From positions 11,573 through 75,572 of the IMG/VR virus record IMGVR_UViG_3300023313_000004: a stretch of DNA of 64,000 nt. One strand, given 5' to 3'. Below, piece after piece: positions 1 to 17,727 of this stretch. How positions within the stretch are numbered: position 1 is the stretch's first letter; the number at the start of each line of letters is the position of its first letter. The DNA comes from a virus. The notes below the pieces were generated by a model. The model ran no database searches, was not told where the DNA came from, and was given only the letters and a program-made list of their open reading frames with translations. A program made the translations under genes and the position numbers.

Positions 1-1653
1 GTGAGGAGGGTGGTCTACCTTACCTTTCTTTGTGTCTAGTTCTAGTTGTACCAGCTCTGTACAAAGCCTCTCGTGGTAGGGCATCTCTATTCTACCATCA
101 TACAAGGCCTGCTTAACAACGTCATAGGGCGCGGTTGTTCTATCTATAGACTGTACCCCTGCCCTAAAATTCTTAGTCCTTAGGATTTGGATAGTGTCTG
201 CTGACTGATATGTATCTAGTGACACCCACCCGATAGGTATCCCTAGCTGGTCTCTTAATGCGTATATCAGCTCCCTTATCTTCCAGAACTGTATTTCTCC
301 CCCTAGAGGTGGTGCTATCTCTAAGGTCATATCTATTACAAATTTGGGGAGTATCTCAAACGTACCACCTCTATCTACTTTAACAAACCTCTCTATGTGC
401 CCCATAGCAAAGCCTGCGCTATCCCCCGTGAGAGCTAAATCCATATGAATCCAGCGTTTAGCTGTGGGGTTTAGGAGGTTCAAGGTACTAAGTTCTGCTG
501 AAGTACTAACAAAATCAACCTCTACATTCGATGCTATAGACTCTAAGGTGCAGGCATCAAATATCTTCGTGCTATCTAAGATGAAGGGGTGCAGAGCCAT
601 GGTGGCTTTGCCAGCAATATCTCTTAGGCTACTCATCATATCATTTTGGAAATCTTTTCTGAAGTCCTCTGGGATACGGTCATACAGCTCTTCCTCCCCC
701 TCAGGGATAACAAAGTCTGGCTCTTCTATTCTGGGTGCTCTAGTTAAGTCTCCTGTGAATATCGTAAACCACCCAGACACAAACTCTTGGGGTTTAATAT
801 CCCACAACCTTTTAGAGTATATAAATATACTGGGGTCATTTACTGCCTCTTTCTCTTTGCATTCAGTGAAGTCTCCGGGGTAATGCTTAGAGGAAACTAG
901 GCATAGTACTCCCGGAAGGTTTCCTTTCTGCATAAACCTAGATTTCCTTCTCCTAGCTATAGAGTTATATATCTCTACTGCTTGGTCGAAGGTGTCTCCC
1001 GTTCTGCTCTGCTTGGATTTCTCTGTGATGCTAAAGAAGTTAATCTCATCTATCACACCTCCAAATACATTCTGCCCTATCGTGGCGGTAGAGGAGGCTG
1101 ATACGGGGCGCACATACACCCTATTAGGGAATTGTAGTTCTGACTCTATATCTTTATTGTAAGGGTAGTGGTTCTTAAAATAAGGGGAGTTATCTATGAG
1201 AGCCTTGAACCTCGCATAGTCTACCTGCTTGGCCACCTTCTCCGTTACCGATTGGAATATGAATACTATCTCTGAGGCAGGGTCTAACCCGTATTCTGCT
1301 TGGGGGTCTACTAAGCAGCTTAATAGGTACAGTTGGTATCCTGTGGTGGCAAGGGCTGCTGTGGACTTACCTACCCCAATAGCCCCTGTAAAGACTCCTT
1401 CATCGTACTTGCCTGTATTAAGTTCTATCATGTCAGTCATGACAGAGGGGTATAGTGCCCCTTCATAATTAAAAAGGTTAGGGTCTGTAATAAATGTTTC
1501 AAAAGATACAGGTATATCTCTGTACTTACCTAAAGTATGAAGGGGTGCTGCATCCCCCTTCATGGCTGCCTGTAAGGCCTTATATATCTGAGCCCTAGCT
1601 TCTGGGTCAGGGAGTCTCGCTACCTCTGGGAATAGACCCTCAATGTTCTTCAT
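1..1653 (-). CDS. terL: Terminase large subunit (3' end runs off the window)
   Basis: Missing from the ORF track because it has no stop in the window. Manual translation from ATG at 1653 (MKNIEGLFPEV...) is open to base 1. Walker A GAIGVGKST, Walker B GGVIDEINFF, RNase H-like HMDLA...GDSAG, C-terminal KVDHPP. Confidence 0.9.
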   Translation of the reverse strand, partial: MKNIEGLFPEVARLPDPEARAQIYKALQAAMKGDAAPLHTLGKYRDIPVSFETFITDPNLFNYEGALYPSVMTDMIELNTGKYDEGVFTGAIGVGKSTAALATTGYQLYLLSCLVDPQAEYGLDPASEIVFIFQSVTEKVAKQVDYARFKALIDNSPYFKNHYPYNKDIESELQFPNRVYVRPVSASSTATIGQNVFGGVIDEINFFSITEKSKQSRTGDTFDQAVEIYNSIARRRKSRFMQKGNLPGVLCLVSSKHYPGDFTECKEKEAVNDPSIFIYSKRLWDIKPQEFVSGWFTIFTGDLTRAPRIEEPDFVIPEGEEELYDRIPEDFRKDFQNDMMSSLRDIAGKATMALHPFILDSTKIFDACTLESIASNVEVDFVSTSAELSTLNLLNPTAKRWIHMDLALTGDSAGFAMGHIERFVKVDRGGTFEILPKFVIDMTLEIAPPLGGEIQFWKIRELIYALRDQLGIPIGWVSLDTYQSADTIQILRTKNFRAGVQSIDRTTAPYDVVKQALYDGRIEMPYHERLCTELVQLELDTKKGKVDHPPH

Positions 1654-2314
1654 CTATAATTGCCTCTTGGAACACCGTAGCTGCTTCATCAGGGACTATG
1701 TTGGATAGCTTAGTCTCGATGGACTTAAGCACGTCTTGCATAGATATAGTGTCACTCTGTAACAGGTTAGAGTATGCTTTATCTGGGTTGATAGCTTTGT
1801 ACATACCTGCTTGGGATAGGAATCTGTGCTTACTATCCTCGGCACTAACTGCCGCCCCTAGTGCTTGTAGTCGCACCTTCTTATCCTTCTCTGTTTCGTC
1901 AGTAGCTATTCTCAGAGCTACCTGCTTAGCTTCCTCGTAGAACCCCATTGTCTCCCCCACAAAAAGGGGGAAGTCTAACTGCATAACATTTTGTCGTATC
2001 TGCTTCTTCATAGCATTTATATCAGAGTACACTGTCTTTAGGTGTATGCCTAACTTCTCTGCTATGTCATTCTTATGTATGCCTCGCATTAGAAGTTGTT
2101 GTACCTTTGTCCTGCGTACAGCTAATTCCTCTTTGGTTATTTTTGCAAACCTCTCTCCTCCCGTATCCCCATGAGACTCCTCTGTTAGCTCTCCCAGAAT
2201 AGTGTCCATCTCCTCGGAGCTGGCATGTTTATATACCTTGCCCCCCTTGGACTTCTTCCCTGTTATGAGCTCCACATCTAACTCTGCCCCTCTTCTTTGT
2301 ATTTTTACGCTCAT
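1640..2314 (-). CDS. terS: Probable terminase small subunit (HTH protein)
   Basis: HTH-like KNDIAEKLGIHLKTVYSDI; overlaps the terL start. ATG at 2314 forms a TAATG overlap with the upstream stop (track start 2347 is probably too long). Confidence 0.65.
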   Translation of the reverse strand: MSVKIQRRGAELDVELITGKKSKGGKVYKHASSEEMDTILGELTEESHGDTGGERFAKITKEELAVRRTKVQQLLMRGIHKNDIAEKLGIHLKTVYSDINAMKKQIRQNVMQLDFPLFVGETMGFYEEAKQVALRIATDETEKDKKVRLQALGAAVSAEDSKHRFLSQAGMYKAINPDKAYSNLLQSDTISMQDVLKSIETKLSNIVPDEAATVFQEAIIDEEH

Positions 2315-2781
2315 TATGTTCCCCTCAGGATAGTGGTTAAGCACCACTCCCCTTTTTTTGGGTAGGGTAGTGTTGCTATCTTAATTTGTCCAACCTCATG
2401 AATAGAACTGTCTATGCGAATCCGCCCATTAAGGGTGTATATCCCTACTGAACTTAAGTGCAGAGTGCAGGTGTTCTTATCTAAGATAAGCGGCACAGGG
2501 GCTAGTATAGGCAGCCCTACTTTAGGGTGCTCCTTAAACCCTTGGGAGGCACTATAGATAGCATTACATACCATCTGTGCCCCCAGTGGGGATGACCTCC
2601 TTATAGAGGCATACATTTCTTTATGGAGTGTTGTTCTGCCGTAACGGTGTAGGGCCTTCCCTCTTTTTGTTACTTGGGCACACTGATTCTTATACTCCTG
2701 CAACAGGGCATAAAGCTTAGACTCCTGCTCCTCTGAGGGGTATAATATTATCTCTTGGGTGTGGGTGCGGTGCTCCCTCAC
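2314..2781 (-). CDS. TnpB/Cas12f-like N-terminal (WED/REC) protein lacking RuvC
   Basis: Motifs YPSEEQ, LHKEMYASIR..LGAQMVCNAI, LDKNT, VGIYTLNGRIRI and KKGEWCL follow the order of the IS605 TnpB N-lobe. The ORF stops before any RuvC-I GxDxG motif. Confidence 0.6.
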   Translation of the reverse strand: MREHRTHTQEIILYPSEEQESKLYALLQEYKNQCAQVTKRGKALHRYGRTTLHKEMYASIRRSSPLGAQMVCNAIYSASQGFKEHPKVGLPILAPVPLILDKNTCTLHLSSVGIYTLNGRIRIDSSIHEVGQIKIATLPYPKKGEWCLTTILRGT

Positions 2782-3245
2782 CTAGAGTAACTAGGGGGTA
2801 GTTTGTTGATACCTTTTTTTATACAGGCTTGTATTAGGGGATTAGTAGACTCCTTGGGTAAACCTGCTTTAGGTGCAGCTATCCGTGGAACTACATACCC
2901 CGTAGTGTTCTTTTTGGGTATTTTCTTTCTTGCTTTAGTTACTTTAACCTTGGTGGTGTCGGTTGAGGGCTTTTTCTCTAGGCTTCTTAGGTCTAGCCAC
3001 CGCCGCCGCAGCTCCTTAGCTGTGTGGTGGTACTCTAGGCTCAGCCCTTTAAAGCTCCTCCCTGATTTTACATATCGTTGGAGTAGTTCATCTGGGAGGG
3101 CAATTCTTGGGTCATCAAATACTTCCCCTGCTGCCTCCAGTACCTCAACTACCCTAGCCACACTCACTCTAAAAGTGAGTGCTACATGCTTAATCTTCAG
3201 CCCTCTTCGGTGGAAGGCTACGACTCTATTGCTTAAATCATCCAT
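2778..3245 (-). CDS. Putative DNA-binding protein with two HTH-like segments
   Basis: GLKIKHVALTFRVSVARVVEVL and GRSFKGLSLEYHHTAKELRRRW; Lys-rich tail; AGGAG RBS upstream. Confidence 0.45.
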   Translation of the reverse strand: MDDLSNRVVAFHRRGLKIKHVALTFRVSVARVVEVLEAAGEVFDDPRIALPDELLQRYVKSGRSFKGLSLEYHHTAKELRRRWLDLRSLEKKPSTDTTKVKVTKARKKIPKKNTTGYVVPRIAAPKAGLPKESTNPLIQACIKKGINKLPPSYSR

Positions 3246-3285
3246 ACTCGTGGTTGCTCTCCTATTCTTGTCCGTCCTTAACTTA

Positions 3286-3356
3286 TAGGTGGCTACAGGT
3301 CACACTTATTACTGCTCTGTATTGTTTACTATACTTGGGTGTGCCTGTAGCCCCTA
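3286..3356. other. Long intergenic inverted repeat / stem-loop
   Basis: TAGG-T-GGCTACAGG-T-CACAC (3286-3305) pairs with GTGTG-CCTGTAGCC-CCTA (3339-3356): 18 bp stem with two single-base bulges. Confidence 0.75.
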
Positions 3357-3410
3357 ACTGGTGGAGGGGGGGGGGGGTGTTGTTGTGCCCTTATGCCCTG
3401 CCCCCTTATG

Positions 3411-4247
3411 TTACAATGTTGCTGTGATGGATACCTCTGGGAACACCCTATCAAATACCTGTAGTACCTCTTCGGCTGATGATTCCTGCATTAAGGATAC
3501 CATAGTTACCTTAGCACCACTACTGCCAGCAGATGTATTAGTGCTGCCCATGTAGTCCATACAAATATACTCTAAGGCTACCCCATCATACTCAGTGTCT
3601 GCTGCATCCTTAGCCTGACCTATAGCATCCTGCACTATCTCCTTCTGGTCATCGTGAACTTTGAAAGTGAGGGTGGTAACAGTAGAGGCCTCTTGCTCTA
3701 ACGCAACAGTGTCTGTCTCTTCCCCCTCAGAATCTTTCATAGCACGGATAAACTCTTGAATTTGTAGTACGGTCATGCCTGCTGCTCGCTCCGCCCACTC
3801 ATCTACGTTATCTAAATTTAGGATTGAGCTTAGTACTCTGAGTTTTGTCCACCCCAGCCCTGAGACTTTTTCCCATGGAATCTCGTTCTCCACAATATCA
3901 TTGTAAATCTTCATAAGGTACATGGCTTTTCGTAGCTTCATACCAAACATATCTTCTACTAAATCTTTAAACCCATCATACCCTGTGTGCCATGCATTTG
4001 TGTATATGGCATCTAGTATGCCCCCTAAGACAAACAGGTTCTCATCTGCTGAGTCTAGGGCATCCTTTGCTTTTTTTAGTGCGGTGCTCTCATCCAAAGA
4101 CTCAATTAGGTGTGTTGATTGTTGTAGTACGTCCAGATGCCCTACCTTCTCCATAGCTCTCTGTGTTTTTTTCGTCATGGTGCCTTTAGCCCCCTTTGTT
4201 AATAGGGCTAAGGTGGTGCTTCCTGTACTATTATCTACTGTACTCAT
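3411..4247 (-). CDS. Hypothetical protein, probably DNA-binding (DUF3102-like helical core)
   Basis: ORF with RBS and its own promoter. FKDLVEDMFGMKLRKAMYLMKIY...LGWTKLRVL resembles DUF3102-type phage proteins. Confidence 0.45.
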   Translation of the reverse strand: MSTVDNSTGSTTLALLTKGAKGTMTKKTQRAMEKVGHLDVLQQSTHLIESLDESTALKKAKDALDSADENLFVLGGILDAIYTNAWHTGYDGFKDLVEDMFGMKLRKAMYLMKIYNDIVENEIPWEKVSGLGWTKLRVLSSILNLDNVDEWAERAAGMTVLQIQEFIRAMKDSEGEETDTVALEQEASTVTTLTFKVHDDQKEIVQDAIGQAKDAADTEYDGVALEYICMDYMGSTNTSAGSSGAKVTMVSLMQESSAEEVLQVFDRVFPEVSITATL

Positions 4248-4274
4248 ATGTCTATACTCCTATGGTATGTCGTC

Positions 4275-4303
4275 ATGTTACTGTTCTTTCTTTCACTTGT
4301 CAA
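4275..4303 (-). promoter_or_regulatory. Sigma70-type promoter
   Basis: TTGACA-17 nt-TAACAT upstream of the 4247 start. Confidence 0.7.
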
Positions 4304-4306
4304 TGC

Positions 4307-4837
4307 TTAAGCCTTGTTCAAGAAGGATGTTATATACTGCACCTTCTCCAAAGCCTCTAGGTTAATCTTAGGCATAGGTATTCCGTGCCCTCTTAGGGAT
4401 AGTCCTATGTGGGCTAAGCCTATCGCATCGGCCACGTTATCATTACTGGTCTCAAAGCCAAACCGCTTATACGCCTCCAGTATCATAACATCCTTTTTGC
4501 AGTTTCCTTTCCCACTCACAAACTTCTTCAGTGCGGTGGGGGCAACCTCATACCAGTTTAGATGGTTAACATGCCAATACAAGCGCATAACCGTGCCTAG
4601 TTCTACCATAGTGGCAAGGTTAAACTTGGCATGGAGGGCGTACCCCTCCGTAACTATTATGTCAGGTTTGTACTCCTGTACCCTAGCAAGAATACTCTCT
4701 GCTATGTTTGTCGCCCTCTCTATCCCTTTCATGCCCTTAGGGTAAGCTAATTCTTCTTGCTGTAGTACCTCCCCTTCTTGGGATACTAGGGCTAGCCCTG
4801 TTTTTGTGGAGGCATCAACGCCTAGGCAGGTAATCAT
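4307..4837 (-). CDS. ruvC: Holliday junction resolvase RuvC
   Basis: CLGVDASTKTG, IVTEG, PTALKKFVSGKGNCKKD, DNVADAIGLA. ATG at 4837 forms an ATGA overlap. Confidence 0.9.
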   Translation of the reverse strand: MITCLGVDASTKTGLALVSQEGEVLQQEELAYPKGMKGIERATNIAESILARVQEYKPDIIVTEGYALHAKFNLATMVELGTVMRLYWHVNHLNWYEVAPTALKKFVSGKGNCKKDVMILEAYKRFGFETSNDNVADAIGLAHIGLSLRGHGIPMPKINLEALEKVQYITSFLNKA

Positions 4838-5769
4838 GCTGGTTCTTCCTCTGGGGTACTCTCTTCTGGTCGCCATTTAAGACCTATAGGGTGATTCCCA
4901 GAGAAGCAGGCTGCTGTTACATGGCATTGGGTAGCCCTTTTGCAGAATGCTACTGAGCATATGCCCTCAGGAATAACCCCCAAGTCCCTAGAGGTTCTGA
5001 CCGCCCATGCTCGCCTAACAGGTAAGTCCGTAAGCGTGTCGTCTCTATGGACAATGAACTCCTTAAACGGGCTTATCCTATCATCCCTAAAATCATAGTC
5101 CCCCACCTCCGTATCCTTAACTCCATGACCTTTAGACCTATAAAGTATTACTGCGGTGTTGGTGTCTATCTTATCCTTATTTGGGTTGTTGCTTTCTGCT
5201 ATAGAGCGCAAGTATAGGCACGTTCTCTGCTTATGCTCGGCTAGCGGTGCTTTTAGCCCCCCTTTCTTTTTTGGGTCAGGGTCTTTAAATTTATTTCTAT
5301 CTATAGTCTTTAGCTCTACAGGGCATAGTAATGGTCTGCCTACGTCTAGGAATAGGTCTATTCCACAAGACACGCCGCTCTTTTCTGATGTGAACCTTAC
5401 CTCTCTATACACTAGGCTTCTACTATTACACTTAACGCAGGTATGCGGTACTTTTGTGAATAGGTGGAGATGCCCACACTCCTTACACAACCAATCCCCT
5501 ACGGCTAAGTCTCTTAACCACCTGTCCGCTACCATAGAGTTATTTTCTTCTCCATGGTCGAATGTGATAGCAAGGGCTGTCCCTATAAACTCATCCTTAG
5601 CCTTTACGTTAAGCACATCCATTAGCCGTACTTCTCTAGGACAGTACTCTGGCTTGGTAACATCAGAGGCATGTATCCTCTTATACCCCCTAGCCTCTCG
5701 AAACCCTGATAGCCTTTCGTGGATTAGTCTCTTTATTGATATTTTCTTTACATGCTTTGTTATTTTCAT
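4834..5769 (-). CDS. Cas4/AddB-like PD-(D/E)XK exonuclease with Cys clusters
   Basis: IHASD..YCPRE, GIDLFL..VELKT, C-terminal C..C..C..C, inserted CKEC..CVKC. Confidence 0.7.
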   Translation of the reverse strand: MKITKHVKKISIKRLIHERLSGFREARGYKRIHASDVTKPEYCPREVRLMDVLNVKAKDEFIGTALAITFDHGEENNSMVADRWLRDLAVGDWLCKECGHLHLFTKVPHTCVKCNSRSLVYREVRFTSEKSGVSCGIDLFLDVGRPLLCPVELKTIDRNKFKDPDPKKKGGLKAPLAEHKQRTCLYLRSIAESNNPNKDKIDTNTAVILYRSKGHGVKDTEVGDYDFRDDRISPFKEFIVHRDDTLTDLPVRRAWAVRTSRDLGVIPEGICSVAFCKRATQCHVTAACFSGNHPIGLKWRPEESTPEEEPA

Positions 5770-5789
5770 ACCTGTGCCTCCCAACCTAA

Positions 5790-6137
5790 CTAAGTAGTGA
5801 GCTCTCTAAACTCAGACTCCCTCACTAACACCCACTTTCCCCCTCTAACTGGGGAGCCTGTAGCGTCAACAAAAGTTACTGATAGTGCTGGCATCTTTTG
5901 TTCTGCTAAAGCCTCAGCCTCTATCTTTAGCAGCCAATCTAATTTTACGCTCATACTCTTGTGTATCGTACTCTTTGCCTCTAGCAAGTAGGTGTTGAGT
6001 TCAACGTCCCCCTTGCACCCCTCTAACGCCCCAGAGGCAGGTCTAGTCCTGCCCCCTAAGCGTTTTGCTACCAACCTCTCGGAGTTAGTGCCGTGGCACC
6101 TCTTATTCCTTCTTGCTAGGTACAGGCTGCTACTCAC
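5790..6137 (-). CDS. Small PD-(D/E)XK endonuclease (Hjc-like resolvase)
   Basis: SERLVAKRLGG..PASGA..KGDV..LLEAKST. Confidence 0.7.
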   Translation of the reverse strand: MSSSLYLARRNKRCHGTNSERLVAKRLGGRTRPASGALEGCKGDVELNTYLLEAKSTIHKSMSVKLDWLLKIEAEALAEQKMPALSVTFVDATGSPVRGGKWVLVRESEFRELTT

Positions 6138-6390
6138 CTTCAGCTTCTGGTAAGGGTAACAGTAGCCCTCTCTTGTGTAACTCCCAATTAGTAATGGCCT
6201 TTACAATCATACTCCTAGTTTTTGATGAGGGGTACATATACTCCGCTACTTTTTTTGCCTCTTCCCCTGTGCTTTCAATAACATTTGCTTCCACAGCCGC
6301 CGCTTTAGTAGGGTATTCTTTCCCTTCTGAGGTGACATATACATCTCTACTTTCCACACTAATTTCTGGTACTTCATAGTTAATAGTCAT
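6130..6390 (-). CDS. Hypothetical protein
   Basis: Coupled ORF in the operon; YVTSEGKEYPTKAAA motif. Confidence 0.6.
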   Translation of the reverse strand: MTINYEVPEISVESRDVYVTSEGKEYPTKAAAVEANVIESTGEEAKKVAEYMYPSSKTRSMIVKAITNWELHKRGLLLPLPEAEGE

Positions 6391-7430
6391 TCTCTTTCTC
6401 CTTGTGCTTCTTCTATAGCTCTCGCAAAAATAGCAGCCTTCACCTTATCTAGGTTTTCTACCGTGCCATACACTGTCTCCATACACTGCTTCTGGGTATC
6501 ATGCTCTTCCCCAAATAGCTGCCACCCTTTGCCGCCCTCTACCTTACCTAACCACCCGTACTGCTTTAGGTACGCTTGTATAGCAGGGTAATCATGGCAC
6601 TGCCCTGCAAGTAGCCCGTTGTGTCCTACCATGGCCATTTCAAACTTACAGGTGCCCCCTGTGGTTTGTACTTTTTTCTTCTTAATAATTACACTCGTCT
6701 CTTTCCTGCAAGCCAAGTCAGGGTGTACATGCTTCTCTATAATATCCTTACCATAAAACCGTAGGCTTAGGGATGCTGCAAACTTAGGGGCATTCCCGCC
6801 GGGAAGGGTCTCAGGGTTCCCAAACATTACTCCTATCTTCAGGCGTATCTGGTTTATATATATGACTGTGGGGGCTCTCCCCTCTCTCCTCGCTACGGCA
6901 AGACCCTTAATCACTTTCCTAGTTAGTTTCCCTACTACTAACGCATTTCCTCCTACCACCGCTTTCTCTGCGGAGGAGCTGCCCTCATTTGCGGTCATCA
7001 TGGCTGCCAGAGAGTCGATAGCTATTAGCCCCACATCTTCTGCCTCTAGGAATGCGTCTACCATATCCACTACTTCTTCTGCATAATCAGTTTGGATTAG
7101 TACCAGCTTTTTAGGGTCTACCCCCAATTTAGTTGCCCATACAGGGTCAAAGGCATTCTCCATGTCAACAAAAATACATTTAAGGTGGGGGTGTATCCTC
7201 TGGTGACTAGCGATAGCTTTGAGGACAGTGTTTGTCTTATTGCTCGACTCTGTACCGTACACTATAGATAGCTTTCCTCTGGGGAATCCTCCTCCTGTGA
7301 TAAGGTCTAGGGAAAAGATGCCTGTAGGTACACGCTCCAAGTCTATAACCGTGTCCGCCTTAGTTACAGCTGCTTCCCCGTAATCCTTCCGCATAGCTGT
7401 CATTAGCTCGTCTACTGTAGGCCCAGCCAT
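6387..7430 (-). CDS. recA: RecA/UvsX recombinase
   Basis: PTGIFSLDLITGGGFPRGK, IDSLAAM, YINQIRLKIGVMFGNPETLPGGNAPKFAAS. Walker A reads GTESSNKT. Confidence 0.95.
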   Translation of the reverse strand: MAGPTVDELMTAMRKDYGEAAVTKADTVIDLERVPTGIFSLDLITGGGFPRGKLSIVYGTESSNKTNTVLKAIASHQRIHPHLKCIFVDMENAFDPVWATKLGVDPKKLVLIQTDYAEEVVDMVDAFLEAEDVGLIAIDSLAAMMTANEGSSSAEKAVVGGNALVVGKLTRKVIKGLAVARREGRAPTVIYINQIRLKIGVMFGNPETLPGGNAPKFAASLSLRFYGKDIIEKHVHPDLACRKETSVIIKKKKVQTTGGTCKFEMAMVGHNGLLAGQCHDYPAIQAYLKQYGWLGKVEGGKGWQLFGEEHDTQKQCMETVYGTVENLDKVKAAIFARAIEEAQGERE

Positions 7431-7729
7431 TAAGTAGCCTCTTGGACTTCGTCTAATAGTGCTCCTAGTTTGGTGTCACACCAGTCCTGAGCAAACTCAA
7501 ATACTCCATCCTGCTCCCCAATAGTGCAGGGGCAATGGCAACTAACCTGTAGCTTTATATTCTCATAGTTACCTAGGTTTACTGTTTTTGACATAGAGAT
7601 GCCTACATTCATTACCTGCTCGCTACTTACCACCTCCGAGATAATGTGGGTGTCTTGTGTCGTACTATTTGTCCTGCTATCAGAAGTTGACGTACTTCCT
7701 GTGCCTAGGTATTTGTCTTTATCTATCAT
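7430..7729 (-). CDS. Hypothetical phage protein
   Basis: Coupled ORF; KTVNLGNYENIK motif. Confidence 0.6.
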   Translation of the reverse strand: MIDKDKYLGTGSTSTSDSRTNSTTQDTHIISEVVSSEQVMNVGISMSKTVNLGNYENIKLQVSCHCPCTIGEQDGVFEFAQDWCDTKLGALLDEVQEAT

Positions 7730-8121
7730 AATTCACTCCATGTTATAAAAGGGTCTGACCCATCTTTAAAGTACCTCTTTAGTAGTTCTACTTGGTGCTC
7801 TGTATAGTACCTCTGACTACTAGGAAGGGTGTGTTTAGGTATGGCATTACTTCTCTCTAAGGGTAGTAGTCCGTGTATCGAGACGGGGCTGTCTAGTACT
7901 ACCCTTCTGGCGTTATGCCCTACTACCTCTCGCCCTCCAACAATGAATACCTTTGTCCTGCTCTCTGCCTTGGGTTTTCCAGACCTATACCTATCGCACT
8001 GCTTTATTGAGGTGTCTCTGTACACCTTATCCTCTTTATATCGCTCTCTACGCTTAGCATTATACTCGTCCTTCTGCTTGTCATACCACGCTTTAAATCG
8101 TCCTGCATCCGCATCTGTCAT
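7726..8121 (-). CDS. Putative MerR-like HTH protein
   Basis: Charged N-terminal helix, then IPKH..QRYYTEHQVELLK; paralogous to the next ORF. Confidence 0.45.
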   Translation of the reverse strand: MTDADAGRFKAWYDKQKDEYNAKRRERYKEDKVYRDTSIKQCDRYRSGKPKAESRTKVFIVGGREVVGHNARRVVLDSPVSIHGLLPLERSNAIPKHTLPSSQRYYTEHQVELLKRYFKDGSDPFITWSEL

Positions 8122-8555
8122 CTAGGCCTCCATTTACTATGCATCTCTCTTAGGGCATCTATCTCCCTCTGCCCCCCTACCCTCCTAGCCGAGAAATAAG
8201 ACTTTATAAGCCTAAACTGGGAGGGTGTGTATCTCTTAGCCTGTGTGTCTAAAGTGTGGGGGGGTATCACCTTCTTTTTACACAATGAATAGAATCTGTT
8301 AAGGCTTATGCCTAGGGATATGGCTACATACCTTACTGGGTATTGGGTTTTACCCCCCCTAACCAACTGCTGAACCGCCTTTTTATGCCCATTCTTTAGT
8401 CGGGTGTAGTAGTCAGCAACCGCCGCCTTTAGGGTGTCCTTCTTTAAGGCATACAGTTCCTTCCGACTATTAAGTATGTGCTCTTTATTTCTCGCATACC
8501 ATTGCCTGTTGTTTTCCCTAAGCTGTTTCCTTCTCCGTGCTGATACTTTGGGCAT
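8118..8555 (-). CDS. Putative MerR-like HTH protein
   Basis: YVAISLGISLNRFYSLCKKKVIPPH..KRYTPSQFRLIK. Confidence 0.5.
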   Translation of the reverse strand: MPKVSARRRKQLRENNRQWYARNKEHILNSRKELYALKKDTLKAAVADYYTRLKNGHKKAVQQLVRGGKTQYPVRYVAISLGISLNRFYSLCKKKVIPPHTLDTQAKRYTPSQFRLIKSYFSARRVGGQREIDALREMHSKWRPR

Positions 8556-10336
8556 TAGTACACCTTTCTCTTGATGACCTCTGCCCCCACCTTTCTATAC
8601 CACCTGAGGCGTTTATTGTAGTACTGCTCAAAGAGAGAAGAGTCTGGGTCTCTAATATCAAGAACCATTGGTGTTTTTTTGCTAGGATACTCCCGTAATA
8701 TCCTGCCAATAATCTGCACTACATCTGAGCGAGGGGTGCATAATACGCAGGTGTCTAACCAAGGAATGTCTGTCGCCATTGAGCACATTTTATAGGTAGC
8801 TAGGATAACTGGTGCTTGCTTTGCCTTCTCCCTAGCCTTCTCACTCATACCCCCAACATAGTAGGCTATATCCTTGTCCTTAATACCTAATGACCTTAAT
8901 ATTGGGTGTAATTTCTCTAGGTGATTCTCCCTAAGGTCTGAGAATAATATAGTCCTCCTGCCTTTTTTATAGGCAGCAGCGGTAAACTTAGCAATCATAT
9001 TGTTTCTATCTCTATCCGCCCCCAATAACTTATTAACATGCATAGTTTTTCCTGCGTTAATAGGCATAGGTACTATAACAGTGATAGGCTTATTCGTTTT
9101 ATTGCACTTGGTAGTCCTCCTTACACGAGGTAATTTGAAGGAGCTGCATACCGTCATTACCGTGGGGGTAAGCATAAGGGATTCACTTACTACTTTTATC
9201 TCCCCGATATGGCTTTTAAATATAACATCCTTACCATCTGACCTATAAGGAGTAGCGGATAGACCTAACCTGTATTTAGAGGCGTACATCCCACATGCCT
9301 TACTAAAGCTCTCCGCCCCCATCACATGACAGTTATGCACTATAAGCCCATTAGCCACAAAATTATGGTTATCTCTTACGCTTATATCGTACACCCTAGT
9401 TTCTGTATGTGGTGCTATCTCAACCACCCTCTCAGGTCTATGCGTCCCCTCAACACTCTCTGGGGTTTTTAGGTTATCCCCTATTAGTAGGTCTTTAGCT
9501 TCTACCCACGAGCCGCCTACTAAGAGGAGCTTATGGTCAGGGGTGCACACTATCGTTACCCCCGATTTAGTGCGGATACATAGGGTTTTTCGCACCCCCT
9601 TATCGAAGGCTTTTGTTACAGGCTTATACTCTACGCACTTAAGTTCTTCATTATAAGTAAGTACATCTATCTTGGTGTTAGCGGCTACGGCCTTACACAG
9701 GGTATCCAGTCTCAGTAATCCTGTGGAGGTGCGTATCTTGGCTGCCCCTGATATGCACTCATCAAAGATGGTAAGCCCAAACTCCCTCTTTACAGCAGAA
9801 GGGTACTTATCTTTGGCTAGGGAGTGTACCATCGCTATAACTACTTTCTTACCCTTAATGTCGCACCTATCCTGCTGCATGTACCCTATATCTTTATCTG
9901 TCAGACCTAGGAACTTCTTAGCTGCGTCTCTCCACATACCCATAATATCCTGCTTGGGTACCACCACTAGGGTTTTTAGCCCTAATTTACCTGCTATAAA
10001 CATCCCCATAAATGTTTTTCCTACGCCAGTGGCAGCCTGCATAATATGGGACTCATCTTTATTAAATAACTGTATGCTCTCCGTAATTAGACGTACCTGC
10101 TCCTCATTCCTAGGTTGCCCTATAGGAGGCATGGGTAATATTGGGGTACCTGTGACCCTCTTATCCTCTAAGCCCATGGGGTTTCCTTCTCTGGGTACAT
10201 ATATAAACCCGTCCTTCTCCCTGTAGGAATGGTACTCCTCGCCATACCTAGAGGTATAGGTGTACTTCGTCTTTAATTTCTGGGTGCTTTTATACACGGA
10301 ACAGGCACCTGTCCACAAGGGGGTACTACTCGCCAT
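8555..10336 (-). CDS. SF2 DExH helicase (UvsW/XPB-like) containing an intein
   Basis: AATGVGKT, DE[intein]CH, GLSATPYRSDG, QIIGRILR. Confidence 0.9.
   Translation of the reverse strand: MASSTPLWTGACSVYKSTQKLKTKYTYTSRYGEEYHSYREKDGFIYVPREGNPMGLEDKRVTGTPILPMPPIGQPRNEEQVRLITESIQLFNKDESHIMQAATGVGKTFMGMFIAGKLGLKTLVVVPKQDIMGMWRDAAKKFLGLTDKDIGYMQQDRCDIKGKKVVIAMVHSLAKDKYPSAVKREFGLTIFDECISGAAKIRTSTGLLRLDTLCKAVAANTKIDVLTYNEELKCVEYKPVTKAFDKGVRKTLCIRTKSGVTIVCTPDHKLLLVGGSWVEAKDLLIGDNLKTPESVEGTHRPERVVEIAPHTETRVYDISVRDNHNFVANGLIVHNCHVMGAESFSKACGMYASKYRLGLSATPYRSDGKDVIFKSHIGEIKVVSESLMLTPTVMTVCSSFKLPRVRRTTKCNKTNKPITVIVPMPINAGKTMHVNKLLGADRDRNNMIAKFTAAAYKKGRRTILFSDLRENHLEKLHPILRSLGIKDKDIAYYVGGMSEKAREKAKQAPVILATYKMCSMATDIPWLDTCVLCTPRSDVVQIIGRILREYPSKKTPMVLDIRDPDSSLFEQYYNKRLRWYRKVGAEVIKRKVY
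9332..9757 (-). mobile_element. Mini-intein (142 aa, no homing endonuclease) in the helicase DECH motif
   Basis: Starts CISG, block B CTPDH, block F VYDISV, ends VHN followed by +1 Cys. Confidence 0.93.
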
Positions 10337-16670: not shown

Positions 16671-17727
16671 GTGTGTCTCCTTGTAATTCAAGTTCTATTG
16701 CTTCCATCTCTGCTAAAGTCACTTTCTTAGCCAAGTTACTGCTACTAATGCTAACGGAGGGGGAAGAAGGCTTAGGATTTAGGGTACCCAAGGACACTGA
16801 AGGGGTATAGAGGCTCTGCTTAAAGAATTGGGGGATGTAGTCTACACTAACCAACATAAAACCTAACTGTGGCTGTTTAGGGGGGTTATGCCCTCCAGAC
16901 TTAGACTTAACAAAGTAAGAGAACGAATCCCAGTTTAGCAAAGCATACTGGTAAGCCTCTGAGTTCTCAGCCCCCAATTTGGAGATAAGGTGCTTAAATT
17001 GCCCAATACTCTTAGAAGTTAGGGGTAAAGGGGTCATATCGTACTCCTGCCTACAAGTTTCTAACCAGAATTTAGACACATTATTGTACGAAAAATCCCC
17101 TAGTAGGGAAGGTTTTGCCTTCTCTAGGGAAATATCTAAAATATCAGTAACAGTAACAGAAGCCTTTATATACTTAGGTTTCTTCCCTGATTTTAGGGTT
17201 GTCCCTAGAGGTTTGTCAGGGAAAGATTCATCTTTTCCTTGTATTCTCTTGGTAGTCTCTGTAGAAGTATAATGGTTGCATAGTGCCATTTTGGCATTAT
17301 GCATAGTGCCATTTTGGCACTTTGGGATAGTGCCATTTTGGCACTTTGGGAAATATTCCCCTTTCTCCTCTTTTTCCTGTTCTACAGCCCAGTCCTCTAC
17401 AGCCTTATTTAGGGTGATTTTCTCTAGGCAATACCACTTTGTTCTATCCGTATTCATCCTATTGTATTTTGAGGTGCTTAGTATTACCCCTGCCTCCTCT
17501 AGCTCCTTCATATCCCTCTTAAGGGTTCTTTCTGAATAGAAGGGTAACTGCTCTATCCATGCAGGGTATGTATTCCACACCCACGAGATACCATCCCTGA
17601 TATTCTTTTGGTATTTAGCCCAGTACTGTATTTGTTGTATGAGTATCGCTTTCTTTAGTCCAAATACCTTTATTAGGGTAGGTTGTACTACTAAAGGGGA
17701 CTCCTCTATTAAGTATTTCATGTTCAC
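16663..17727 (-). CDS. Replication initiator (lambda O/DnaD-like wHTH)
   Basis: GLKKAILIQQIQYW..WVWNTY..W..QLPFYSERTLKR..DRTKWY; carries internal iteron repeats. Confidence 0.8.
   Translation of the reverse strand: MNMKYLIEESPLVVQPTLIKVFGLKKAILIQQIQYWAKYQKNIRDGISWVWNTYPAWIEQLPFYSERTLKRDMKELEEAGVILSTSKYNRMNTDRTKWYCLEKITLNKAVEDWAVEQEKEEKGEYFPKCQNGTIPKCQNGTMHNAKMALCNHYTSTETTKRIQGKDESFPDKPLGTTLKSGKKPKYIKASVTVTDILDISLEKAKPSLLGDFSYNNVSKFWLETCRQEYDMTPLPLTSKSIGQFKHLISKLGAENSEAYQYALLNWDSFSYFVKSKSGGHNPPKQPQLGFMLVSVDYIPQFFKQSLYTPSVSLGTLNPKPSSPSVSISSSNLAKKVTLAEMEAIELELQGDTHG
17277..17351. repeat. Three iteron-like repeats (candidate replication origin)
   Basis: ATAGTGCCATTTTGGCA at 17280, 17303 and 17327; each core TGCCA-TTT-TGGCA is palindromic. 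Confidence 0.75.

What the first reader, a model, noticed from the sequence alone, without database searches (positions are those of the whole stretch)
2314..2781. RuvC-less TnpB/Cas12f-like protein embedded in the terminase operon
Seen: a 155-aa ORF with motifs in the order of the TnpB WED/REC lobe, ending just after the last WED-like strand (GEWCL). It overlaps both neighbours (GTGA and TAATG), and I see no tnpA, IS ends or frameshifted RuvC remnant. Established: this lobe binds guide RNA and the TAM, and known dead TnpB derivatives such as TldR keep the RuvC fold. Inference: a domesticated half-TnpB acting as an RNA/DNA-binding regulator of packaging genes, or as a decoy against Cas12/TnpB systems, rather than a decayed IS.
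Basis: partly seen in the sequence, partly recalled or inferred. Interest (0 to 1): 0.75.

Follow-up and report, generated by a model that had tools for sequence, protein, structure and literature searches.

The report
Nuclease-less TnpB half in phage
A small gene wedged into this phage's DNA-packaging operon encodes only the DNA-motif-reading half of a transposon's RNA-guided nuclease (TnpB, the ancestor of Cas12). The cutting half and the guide RNA are gone, and the gene looks kept rather than decaying, a form of TnpB reuse I did not find described in the papers I could search.

Summary
The ORF at 2314-2781 (-) has 155 codons and overlaps both neighbours (GTGA upstream, TAATG downstream).

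**What it is**
- Its AlphaFold model (pLDDT 94.7) superposes over its whole length on ISDra2 TnpB residues 1-176, the WED+REC lobe (Z 13.7).
- Full-length relatives of 370-392 aa go on into RuvC and the zinc finger about 12 residues after the point where this protein stops.

**What is missing**
- The complete 75.6-kb phage genome has no RuvC/TNB remnant, no TnpA and no IS end.
- It also has no copy of the parent family's omega-RNA. I defined that RNA here: 34 of 40 pairs covary, and control loci score 143-192 bits.

**Why it looks kept**
- Two other proteins (147 and 152 aa, 31-39% identical) form a well-supported clade with it and end at the same strand.
- The family-invariant residues are retained, and composition matches the phage.

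**Likely function**
- Function is inferred: a guide-free reader of a TTCAT-type DNA motif serving the packaging operon.
- A separate RuvC-less clade heads betaproteobacterial T1SS operons, where inverted TTCAT-containing boxes bracket its own promoter.
- The phage has three CCCCTTCAT copies at the 5' end of terL. This is a weak lead only.

This scan has already noted RuvC-less TnpB halves in other genomes. I found none in the literature I searched.

The parts
2314..2781 (-). Gene for the 155-aa RuvC-less TnpB recognition lobe (WED + REC). GTG start, TAA stop, 17.5 kDa, pI 9.5.
   Evidence: ORF. Homology to the N-terminal lobe of full-length TnpBs. AF2 pLDDT 94.7. Z 13.7 to ISDra2 TnpB residues 1-176. 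pI and composition.
2778..3245 (-). Upstream 155-aa basic (pI 10.4) ORF, probably a small HTH DNA-binding protein. Its TGA stop overlaps the GTG start of the half-TnpB gene (GTGA).
   Evidence: Only weak family signals: Myb-like E 0.047, phrog_8446 E 0.003, and Atlas look-alikes with HTH_7/HTH_23 at score 0.85-0.88.
1640..2314 (-). Downstream 224-aa HTH protein, the putative small terminase subunit. Its ATG overlaps the TAA of the half-TnpB gene (TAATG), and its end overlaps the terL start by 14 nt.
   Evidence: HTH hits and weak terS PHROGs. 26% identity (E 3.5e-6) to the gene directly upstream of terL in Vibrio phage vB_VpS_PG28.
1..1653 (-). Large terminase subunit gene. The first 551 codons lie in the window and the gene runs off its left edge.
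   Evidence: 50% identity over 521 residues to the annotated TerL of Vibrio phage vB_VpS_PG28. Weak terL PHROGs.
1458..1563 (.). Three copies of CCCCTTCAT: + strand at 1458 and 1555, reverse complement at 1537. The last two form ATGAAGGGG-N9-CCCCTTCAT. All lie inside the 5' end of terL. Each contains TTCAT, the TAM of the parent TnpB family. This is a candidate binding site and a weak lead only.
   Evidence: It is the densest TTCAT/ATGAA cluster in the genome, and 1% of Markov-3 simulations reach it at the 300-nt window (window size chosen post hoc). It is the only non-tandem 9-mer with at least 3 copies within 120 nt, and 7% of simulated genomes contain some such cluster. The three copies sit in three different reading contexts of terL (read from the sequence).
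3246..3410 (-). Intergenic leader ahead of the four-gene overlapping block (HTH ORF, half-TnpB, terS-like, terL). It has an 18-bp bulged stem with a 33-nt loop, a run of C/G, CATAAGGG twice, and an AGGAGAG ribosome-binding site before the ATG at 3245.
   Evidence: Sequence. RNA fold -47.4 kcal/mol, z -2.37. No sigma-70-like promoter or terminator called inside it. No Rfam match and no omega-RNA model match.

Best explanation
The gene encodes the complete recognition (REC) lobe of a TnpB nuclease, that is WED plus REC. It descends from a TnpB subfamily whose transposons use the TAM TTCAT and a conserved omega-RNA. The nuclease lobe (RuvC + TNB), the guide RNA gene and the transposon ends have all been lost. 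What remains is kept as an ordinary phage gene, translationally coupled between a small HTH protein and the putative small terminase.

Shown here: the identity, the exact truncation point, the absence of any nuclease or guide remnant in the genome, and the existence of a small clade with the same architecture.

Inferred: it works without a guide RNA as a protein that reads a short TTCAT-type DNA motif in the WED/REC cleft. It probably acts as an accessory DNA-binding factor of the packaging operon, either marking or regulating DNA at the terS/terL region, and perhaps together with the co-translated HTH and TerS-like proteins.

My confidence is about 0.9 for identity and domestication, about 0.45 for guide-free DNA-motif binding, and about 0.2 for a specific role in packaging-site choice or regulation.
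For: Identity
-.
- Domain limits of ISDra2 TnpB (WED 1-12 and 117-176, REC 13-116, RuvC from 185), and the TAM duplex held in the WED/REC cleft, come from PMC10097598.

No nuclease, transposase or guide
- tblastn with six full-length relatives: nothing beyond the ORF better than E of about 1.
- Six-frame Pfam searches for PF07282, PF01385 and PF01797 in the whole genome were all empty.
- The omega-RNA model R1 scores 143-192 bits on control loci and at most 7.5 bits (E 0.38) on the window searched with filters off. With default filters it finds no match at E<=0.01 in the remaining 11.7 kb of the genome.
- nhmmer profiles of the left and right ends found nothing.

Retention
- The query, P0002 (152 aa) and P0003 (147 aa) form a clade with 99/98 support. 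They are 31-39% identical and all end 3-5 residues after the last WED strand.
- At the 57 positions that are at least 85% conserved in 48 full-length relatives, the query keeps 31 (54%), against 17 of 91 (19%) elsewhere.
- The block H53, Y57, R61, L66-G67, Q69-M70, C72-N73-A74-I75, D101, T104, T116, R120 is kept, apart from a conservative K for R61 in P0003, in all three clade members and in both other groups.
- GC is 0.470 against 0.458+-0.021, and CAI is 0.727 against 0.738+-0.027.

Mechanism by analogy
- An independent RuvC-less clade (100/100 support) heads T1SS operons in about 55 betaproteobacterial species.
- There TTCATATAGG lies 27-28 nt before a start codon embedded in the reverse-complement CCTATATG(AA).
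- TTCAT is the TAM at the left end of about 20 independent parent elements.
- That clade also lacks the omega-RNA.

Candidate site in the phage: the CCCCTTCAT x3 cluster at 1458-1563.
Against: - No DNA or RNA binding has been measured.
- The clade has only three known members. dN/dS could not be computed.
- A 5-bp motif gives little specificity on its own.
- The phage motif cluster is statistically weak and was partly found post hoc. Its geometry (ATGAA-N17-TTCAT) differs from that of the T1SS operator, and it lies inside a coding region.
- The query clade has replaced several residues that are conserved in both other groups (C46-W47-N48, H99, R103, Y105, E135, E137), so its specificity or function may have shifted.
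- The equivalence I draw between Q69/M70/N73, H53/Y57, T104 and the ISDra2 TAM-contact residues K76/F77/Q80, Y52/S56, T123 rests on spacing and position, not on a residue-level superposition.
Confidence: 0.55

Rival explanations
1. Inert leftover. A TnpB-carrying IS once inserted upstream of terS. A deletion removed its 3' half, and the remaining open frame is tolerated only because it carries translational coupling through the operon. On this reading the protein has no function of its own.
For: The clade is tiny: three singleton clusters among 5.8 billion. It sits on long branches of 0.86-3.6 changes per site. Several residues conserved in the parent family are lost. Full-length TnpBs of the same subfamily do occur on phage contigs.
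Against: Three proteins at 31-39% identity keep an uninterrupted frame, the same end point and the invariant core residues. A neutral fragment would be expected to have accumulated stops and indels long before reaching that divergence. The AF2 model is confident over the whole length. Composition is fully ameliorated. No trace of the left end, the TAM or the right end remains.
Confidence: 0.1
2. Decoy or inhibitor. The free REC lobe competes with TnpB- or Cas12-type nucleases of the host or of rival mobile elements. It could do so by occupying TAM/PAM sites on phage DNA or by sequestering their guide RNAs through its WED domain.
For: The parent TnpB family (TAM TTCAT) is common in the metagenomes sampled, occurs on phage contigs, and is present in several copies in one chlamydial genome. 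The phage comes from a microbial mat. The WED domain contributes to omega-RNA binding in ISDra2 TnpB (PMC10097598).
Against: TnpB cleaves only guide-matched sites next to its own transposon's excision scar, so it is not an obvious threat to a phage. Protecting about 139 TTCAT sites by occupancy is implausible. Most omega-RNA contacts are made by RuvC helices, which are absent here. There were no PADLOC hits. Placement in a late packaging operon is poor timing for a counter-defence gene. Nothing observed speaks positively for this idea.
Confidence: 0.08
3. RNA-guided or RNA-binding regulator, like TldR. The lobe still uses an RNA partner that does not resemble the parent omega-RNA, for example the structured leader at 3246-3410, to find or regulate its targets.
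For: The leader ahead of the operon folds into an 18-bp stem (z -2.37). The WED domain is an OB fold that touches omega-RNA stem 4 and the pseudoknot in ISDra2 TnpB.
Against: In TnpB the guide-target heteroduplex channel and most of the scaffold contacts need RuvC. No omega-RNA-like element is present and there is no Rfam match. The query clade is shortened by about 7 residues in the WED segment preceding the KEAEL motif, which I take, by position only, to be the part that faces the RNA. It has also lost the conserved KEAEL residues E135 and E137. The independent T1SS clade also lacks the RNA but keeps DNA boxes. The z-score of the leader is modest.
Confidence: 0.1
4. Protein-protein adaptor. 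The fold has been reused as a scaffold that binds TerS, TerL, the HTH protein or a host factor, and nucleic-acid reading plays no part.
For: Translational coupling with three packaging-module genes suggests stoichiometric co-production. Elsewhere in this scan the same lobe was reported fused to PspA (note e1-5508714, unchecked).
Against: The residues kept most strictly lie on the REC helices and WED strands that face the TAM duplex in TnpB. That placement is inferred from position. The protein is basic, pI 9.5.
Confidence: 0.1

Closest known systems
TnpB (OrfB) of IS200/IS605-type elements: structurally ISDra2 TnpB (PDB 8EXA, 8BF8, 8H1J); by sequence a subfamily of 363-392-aa TnpBs from Chlamydiota, Verrucomicrobiota, metagenomes and phage contigs (e.g. 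L008-L012, L145)
   Same: The whole protein is homologous to, and superposes on, the WED+REC lobe (Z 13.7, 149 residues). It is 28-38% identical to the subfamily's N-terminal 150-165 residues. It shares the subfamily's invariant residues.
   Different: It lacks RuvC, the TNB zinc finger, the C-terminal domain, the omega-RNA, TAM-flanked ends and any mobility. It cannot be a nuclease.
TldR (TnpB-like nuclease-dead repressors) and the other exapted TnpBs catalogued by Altae-Tran et al. 2023 (PMC10691335)
   Same: It is a TnpB derivative that has been immobilised and has lost nuclease activity, sits in a fixed operon context, and is carried by a phage, as some TldRs are.
   Different: The described cases keep the RuvC fold at least in part. 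The flagellin-linked ones lack only RuvC-III, and they keep a guide RNA encoded downstream. Here the whole NUC lobe and the guide are gone.
RuvC-less TnpB lobe at the head of betaproteobacterial T1SS operons
   Same: The same WED+REC-only architecture, derived from the same parent subfamily. No omega-RNA. First or early gene of an operon, with overlapping stop and start codons.
   Different: It is a separate clade (100/100 against 99/98). It is 198-240 aa long, with an acidic linker and a conserved C-terminal P[ED]Y[LIV]xVE tail. It is bacterial and chromosomal. Its own promoter is bracketed by TTCATATAGG / CCTATATGAA boxes, which the phage gene lacks.
Cas12f (e.g. AsCas12f, PDB 8J12, 8DZJ)
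   Same: The WED/REC lobes match with Z 13.3-13.6.
   Different: The phage has no CRISPR array, no RuvC, and no zinc-finger insertion in the lobe.

Membership tests
TnpB (IS200/IS605/IS607 RNA-guided nuclease) | N-terminal WED (OB-fold barrel) with the helical REC domain inserted | tested here: met
   AF2 model at pLDDT 94.7. Z 13.7, rmsd 2.8 A, 149 residues aligned to ISDra2 TnpB residues 1-176. Sequence homology to full-length TnpBs.
TnpB (IS200/IS605/IS607 RNA-guided nuclease) | RuvC domain with the D-E-D catalytic triad | tested here: not met
   The protein stops about 12 residues before the position of RuvC-I. There is no PF01385 match and no tblastn match to the RuvC halves anywhere in the 75.6-kb genome. 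The RuvC-family ORF at 4307-4876 matches the Holliday-junction resolvase family PF02075 (E 1.6e-4, just under the curated cut-off), not the TnpB RuvC.
TnpB (IS200/IS605/IS607 RNA-guided nuclease) | TNB zinc-finger domain | tested here: not met
   No PF07282 match in six frames of the genome.
TnpB (IS200/IS605/IS607 RNA-guided nuclease) | omega-RNA encoded at the 3' end of the gene and the right end of the element | tested here: not met
   The covariance model of the parent family's omega-RNA (34 of 40 pairs covary) scores 143-192 bits on control loci. It scores at most 7.5 bits on the window with filters off, and finds no match at E<=0.01 in the rest of the genome.
TnpB (IS200/IS605/IS607 RNA-guided nuclease) | Transposon context: TAM-flanked left end, right end, often tnpA | tested here: not met
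   No Y1 transposase. nhmmer and blastn with the ends of relatives gave only chance matches. There is no TTCAT on the coding strand upstream of the ORF.
TldR (TnpB-like nuclease-dead repressor) | Retained but catalytically dead RuvC fold, plus an adjacent guide RNA that targets a promoter | tested here: not met
   There is no RuvC fold at all and no guide-like RNA. The definition is taken from PMC10691335 and the abstracts listed.
Cas12f / type V CRISPR effector | Association with a CRISPR array, and a RuvC nuclease lobe | tested here: not met
   No repeat-spacer array in the window. No RuvC or TNB.
RuvC-less TnpB recognition-lobe proteins (informal class: T1SS-linked clade here; other lineages in scan notes) | Stand-alone WED+REC protein that ends at the WED/RuvC linker, conserved among diverged homologues, with no omega-RNA | tested here: met
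   This class is not a curated family, so membership is descriptive only.
RuvC-less TnpB recognition-lobe proteins (informal class) | Binds a TAM-type DNA motif without a guide | not testable with these tools
   Only indirect evidence is available: TTCAT boxes at the T1SS-clade promoters and a weak CCCCTTCAT cluster in the phage.

The most novel reading that the evidence does not exclude
A phage has recruited the guide-free TAM-reading lobe of TnpB as a sequence-recognition subunit of its packaging machinery. Made together with an HTH protein and TerS, it would recognise the CCCCTTCAT triplet at the terS/terL junction and so help define where packaging starts, or how the terminase genes are expressed. 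This would be a new way of building DNA-site specificity from an RNA-guided nuclease. Together with the T1SS-linked clade, it would point to a recurrent and undescribed class of 'TAM-reader' DNA-binding proteins.
Probability: 0.12. Interest if true: 0.85.

Novelty: new variant of a known kind. Interest (0 to 1): 0.65.

Why it matters
Exaptation of TnpB is an active topic (Cas12, TldR, sigma-factor-linked forms, Fanzor). Every described derivative I could find keeps at least part of the RuvC lobe and a guide RNA.

A stand-alone recognition lobe that is conserved without nuclease or guide would show that the TAM-reading module can be selected for on its own. That bears on how PAM/TAM recognition evolved, and it offers very small (17.5 kDa) natural DNA-motif readers.

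The phage setting, inside a terminase operon, would also add an unexpected component to packaging modules. The parent family's TAM (TTCAT) and omega-RNA, and the T1SS-clade operator, were worked out here, so the idea can be tested directly with purified proteins and defined DNA.

Tried and rejected
**Family and structure searches on the ORF**
- Pfam, PHROGs, NCBIfam and PADLOC gave nothing.
- phmmer and profile searches against PDB sequences gave only noise. The link to TnpB needed full-length intermediates and the fold.

**Homologues and their context**
- The word-indexed homologue search with the single protein returned only the protein itself.
- Scans of IMG/VR, JGI metagenomes and GTDB genomes with the clade alignment returned only full-length TnpBs and the T1SS clade, never a further clade member.

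**Related phages**
- Scans with the terS-like and TerL proteins found no related phage in IMG/VR.
- The nearest annotated phages are Vibrio phages at 50% TerL identity. They have a ParB/Noc-like gene where this phage has the HTH ORF plus the half-TnpB gene.

**RNA and transposon-end searches**
- Rfam on window 1-8000 gave no match.
- Searches for the omega-RNA, left end and right end were all negative.

**Mapping TAM-contact residues**
- Mapping ISDra2 TAM-contact residues by sequence failed, because PDB alignments of the relatives cover only RuvC/TNB.

**Motif counts**
- Genome-wide TTCAT/ATGAA counts are near expectation: 96 against 86, and 43 against 31.
- CCCTTATG, which occurs twice in the leader, occurs 7 times in the genome. 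I treat it as not significant.

**Other checks**
- No RNA holder was listed for the locus in public sequencing runs. I did not lay reads.
- The 127-bp terminal repeat is exact and probably an assembly overlap, so it says nothing about the packaging mode.
- I considered that the HTH ORF plus the half-TnpB gene might be a decayed IS607-type tnpA-tnpB pair. I dropped the idea because there is no resolvase or MerR signal.
Full report
**The sequence**

The window is bases 11573-75572 of a complete 75,572-bp IMG/VR virus record. The record comes from a microbial-mat metagenome. Nearly all genes lie on the minus strand.

Reading the sequence shows two overlaps. Its GTG overlaps the TGA of the upstream ORF 2778-3245 (GTGA). 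Its TAA overlaps the ATG of the downstream gene (TAATG, preceded by GAGGGGA), so that gene runs 1640-2314. That gene in turn overlaps the start of terL (1653) by 14 nt.

So four genes form one overlapping block behind a 165-nt leader (3246-3410): an HTH-like ORF, this ORF, a terS-like HTH protein and terL. The leader has its own AGGAGAG ribosome-binding site.

TerL is 50% identical to the annotated TerL of Vibrio phage vB_VpS_PG28. The 224-aa protein is a weak homologue (26%, E 3.5e-6) of the gene directly upstream of terL in that phage. Calling it terS is therefore reasonable but unproven.

**Identity**

Curated libraries see nothing in the ORF. An exhaustive phmmer search of 1.84 billion representatives found 93 relatives. 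The few that are 358-395 aa long carry Pfam OrfB_IS605 and Cas12f1-like_TNB. One of them matches solved TnpB and Cas12f chains at E 1e-16 to 1e-24 through its C-terminal half.

Full-length relatives were also recovered on phage contigs (374 and 392 aa). They align to the query over their first 165 or so residues only. The query ends at ...EWCLTTILRGT, opposite ...QWYFNLVIDIPD, and RuvC-I (GVDVGEN) follows about 12 residues later in the full-length proteins.

AlphaFold2 with this alignment gave pLDDT 94.7 and pTM 0.88. The model aligns over residues 3-155 to ISDra2 TnpB residues 1-176 with Z 13.7 and rmsd 2.8 A over 149 residues. All of the top 50 entries are TnpB, Cas12 or Fanzor.

In ISDra2 TnpB, WED is residues 1-12 and 117-176, REC is 13-116, and RuvC starts at 185. 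The TAM duplex lies in the WED/REC cleft, while the omega-RNA scaffold lies on WED plus RuvC (PMC10097598). The phage protein is therefore exactly the REC lobe and nothing else.

**What is absent**

- tblastn with six full-length relatives finds only the ORF itself (E about 1e-12). Nothing else is better than E of about 1.
- Six-frame searches of the whole genome for PF07282 (TNB), PF01385 (TnpB RuvC) and PF01797 (Y1 transposase) are empty, while the same searches ring in control genomes.
- The ORF at 4307-4876 is a member of the Holliday-junction resolvase RuvC family. It matches PF02075 over positions 2-145 of 148, at E 1.6e-4 and just under the curated cut-off. It sits in a recombination module with RecA and is not a detached TnpB nuclease lobe.

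I also defined the parent family's guide RNA. The last 135 nt of tnpB plus 45 nt downstream, taken from 41 elements, fold into a consensus with 40 pairs. Of these, 34 show compensatory changes. The element ends in ...ACCATAAAGC-hairpin-TTGTTTAC.

A covariance model built from this alignment scores 143-192 bits on control loci. On the window with filters off it scores no better than 7.5 bits (E 0.38). With default filters it finds nothing at E<=0.01 in the remaining 11.7 kb of the genome. Sequence profiles of the left and right ends find nothing either, and Rfam finds nothing. There is no CRISPR array.

**Is it kept or decaying?**

In a tree of recognition lobes, the query groups with P0002 (152 aa) and P0003 (147 aa) at 99/98 support, apart from everything else. 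A profile search of 5.8 billion clusters found no fourth member. The three are only 31-39% identical, yet each ends 3-5 residues after the same WED strand. They are recorded on contigs of up to 8.9 kb and 20 kb, so truncation by contig ends is unlikely.

Of the 57 positions that are at least 85% conserved in 48 full-length relatives, the query keeps 54%, against 19% of the remaining positions. H53, Y57, R61, L66-G67, Q69-M70, C72-N73-A74-I75, D101, T104, T116 and R120 are kept in all three clade members and in both other groups, apart from a conservative K for R61 in P0003.

GC content and codon adaptation are indistinguishable from the other phage genes. Together these points argue for long retention under purifying selection.

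The clade has also changed residues that the other groups conserve: C46-W47-N48, H99, R103, Y105, E135 and E137. It is shorter in the WED segment just before the KEAEL motif, which I take, by position only, to face the omega-RNA in TnpB. That fits a loss of RNA use and possibly a shifted specificity.

**A second, independent RuvC-less clade and what it suggests**

Most of the 190-260-aa hits are not fragments. They form a 100/100-supported clade. Its members are 198-240 aa long and consist of WED+REC, an acidic linker and a conserved C-terminal P[ED]Y[LIV]xVE tail.

In metagenome loci and in about 55 species-level genomes of Burkholderiales and Rhodocyclales, the gene is followed directly by a 570-630-aa ORF, often with a 4-nt overlap. 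Pfam identifies the downstream genes as two ABC exporters, an HlyD-type fusion protein and a TolC-type outer-membrane protein. In one locus a 2164-aa RTX-repeat protein lies upstream.

None of the 19 such loci tested has the omega-RNA.

The parent family's TAM can be read from insertion boundaries. Three copies in one chlamydial genome, and about 20 unrelated elements, all have TTCAT immediately left of the left end.

Upstream of the T1SS-clade genes, TTCAT/ATGAA occurs 101 times in 68 loci, against 31+-5 in shuffles, and 49 of these fall in the -50 to -25 bin. TTCATATAGG is present in 46 of 76 loci. The start codon sits in the reverse-complement CCTATATG in 65 of 76 loci. The usual spacing is 27-28 nt, spanning a -10-like TAnAAT.

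This is what one would expect of a guide-free TAM reader acting on its own promoter.

**Mechanism proposed for the phage protein**

By homology, the protein keeps the cleft that reads the TAM. The strictly conserved Q69-M70-x-x-N73 on the third REC helix, H53/Y57 on the second, and T104 at the start of the returning WED strand have the same spacing and approximate position as ISDra2 K76-F77-x-x-Q80, Y52/S56 and T123. Those ISDra2 residues contact the TAM. This mapping is an inference, not a superposition.

I therefore think the protein binds a TTCAT-type motif in double-stranded DNA without RNA. Where it acts is uncertain. There is no T1SS-style operator at its own start or in the leader.

The densest TTCAT/ATGAA cluster of the genome lies at 1399-1685. 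Six copies in 300 nt is reached by 1% of Markov-3 simulations at that window size, but by 5-25% at other window sizes.

Within that cluster, CCCCTTCAT occurs three times in 105 nt (1458 +, 1537 -, 1555 +). The last two form ATGAAGGGG-N9-CCCCTTCAT. The three copies sit in three different reading contexts of terL. It is the only non-tandem 9-mer with at least three copies within 120 nt, and 7% of simulated genomes show some such cluster.

Its position at the terS/terL junction, where pac sites often lie in other phages (my own knowledge), makes it a reasonable candidate site. It remains only a lead.

**Comparison with what is known**

The census of TnpB and Cas12 diversity describes many exaptations. 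The dead forms it reports keep RuvC at least in part (the flagellin-linked ones lack only RuvC-III), and they keep room for a guide downstream (PMC10691335). Searches for RuvC-less TnpB in 8.4 million full texts found only IshB, an IscB relative. No paper linked TnpB with T1SS.

Notes from this scan report stand-alone or fused WED+REC lobes in Thorarchaeota, Acidimicrobiia, Bradyrhizobium (fused to PspA) and T1SS operons. The phenomenon therefore seems recurrent, but those notes are unchecked apart from the T1SS one.

I file the phage gene as a new variant of a known kind (exapted TnpB), not as a TnpB, TldR or Cas12f. It fails their defining features: nuclease lobe, guide RNA, and transposon or CRISPR context.

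**Verdict**

Guide-free DNA-motif binding is the best-supported mechanism, at roughly 45%, with a packaging-related role less certain. Inert remnant, decoy, RNA-dependent regulator and pure protein adaptor remain as rivals, each at about 10%.

Noticed in passing
L058:7995-14752, L098:8001-10312, L071:227-13598 and about 70 further loci (L046-L174): A conserved 198-240-aa RuvC-less TnpB lobe with a P[ED]Y[LIV]xVE tail is the first gene of T1SS operons (two ABC exporters, HlyD, TolC; an RTX protein nearby in L071) across Burkholderiales and Rhodocyclales. Its promoter is bracketed by TTCATATAGG and the reverse-complement CCTATATG(AA) at the start codon.
   Followed up: partly
L145:8966-9146, with 40 other loci in alignment A4: The omega-RNA of this TnpB subfamily is well defined: 40 pairs, 34 of them with compensatory changes, a right end of ...TTGTTTAC, and TAM TTCAT at the left end. 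One chlamydial chromosome holds at least four near-identical omega-RNA/right-end copies, three of which were also seen as complete elements (L145, L146 with two hits, L155).
   Followed up: partly
window 8555-10336 (-): The 593-aa ResIII/DEAD-type helicase is interrupted by an intein (Pfam Intein_splicing E 3.9e-16, residues 225-335). The intein is inserted in the DE-x-H box (FDE|C...VHN|CH).
   Followed up: no
window 3246-3410 (-): The leader of the packaging block has an 18-bp bulged stem with a 33-nt loop (z -2.37), a run of 12 C (G on the + strand) and CATAAGGG twice. No promoter, terminator, Rfam or omega-RNA match was found, and its role is unknown.
   Followed up: partly
window 4307-7430 (-): A recombination module lies just upstream of the packaging block: a RuvC-family resolvase (PF02075), a 316-aa protein with a rubredoxin-like Cys cluster, and a RecA homologue (PF00154, E 2.7e-47).
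   Followed up: no
window 17280-17351: Three tandem copies of a 24-nt unit (ATAGTGCCATTTTGGCACTTTGGG), each containing a short palindrome. This could be a protein-binding array or an origin-like element.
   Followed up: no
genome ends (G000:C1:1-127 and 75446-75572): The 'direct terminal repeat' is an exact 127-bp overlap. That is typical of an assembly k-mer overlap on a circular or permuted genome rather than a physical terminal repeat.
   Followed up: partly
L175 (Vibrio phage vB_VpS_PG28, MT735630.2 12951-13718): In the nearest annotated phages, the slot upstream of the terS-like gene holds a ParB/Noc-like 'nucleoid occlusion protein'. This phage instead has the HTH ORF plus the half-TnpB gene there, so different DNA-binding genes occupy the same position.
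   Followed up: partly
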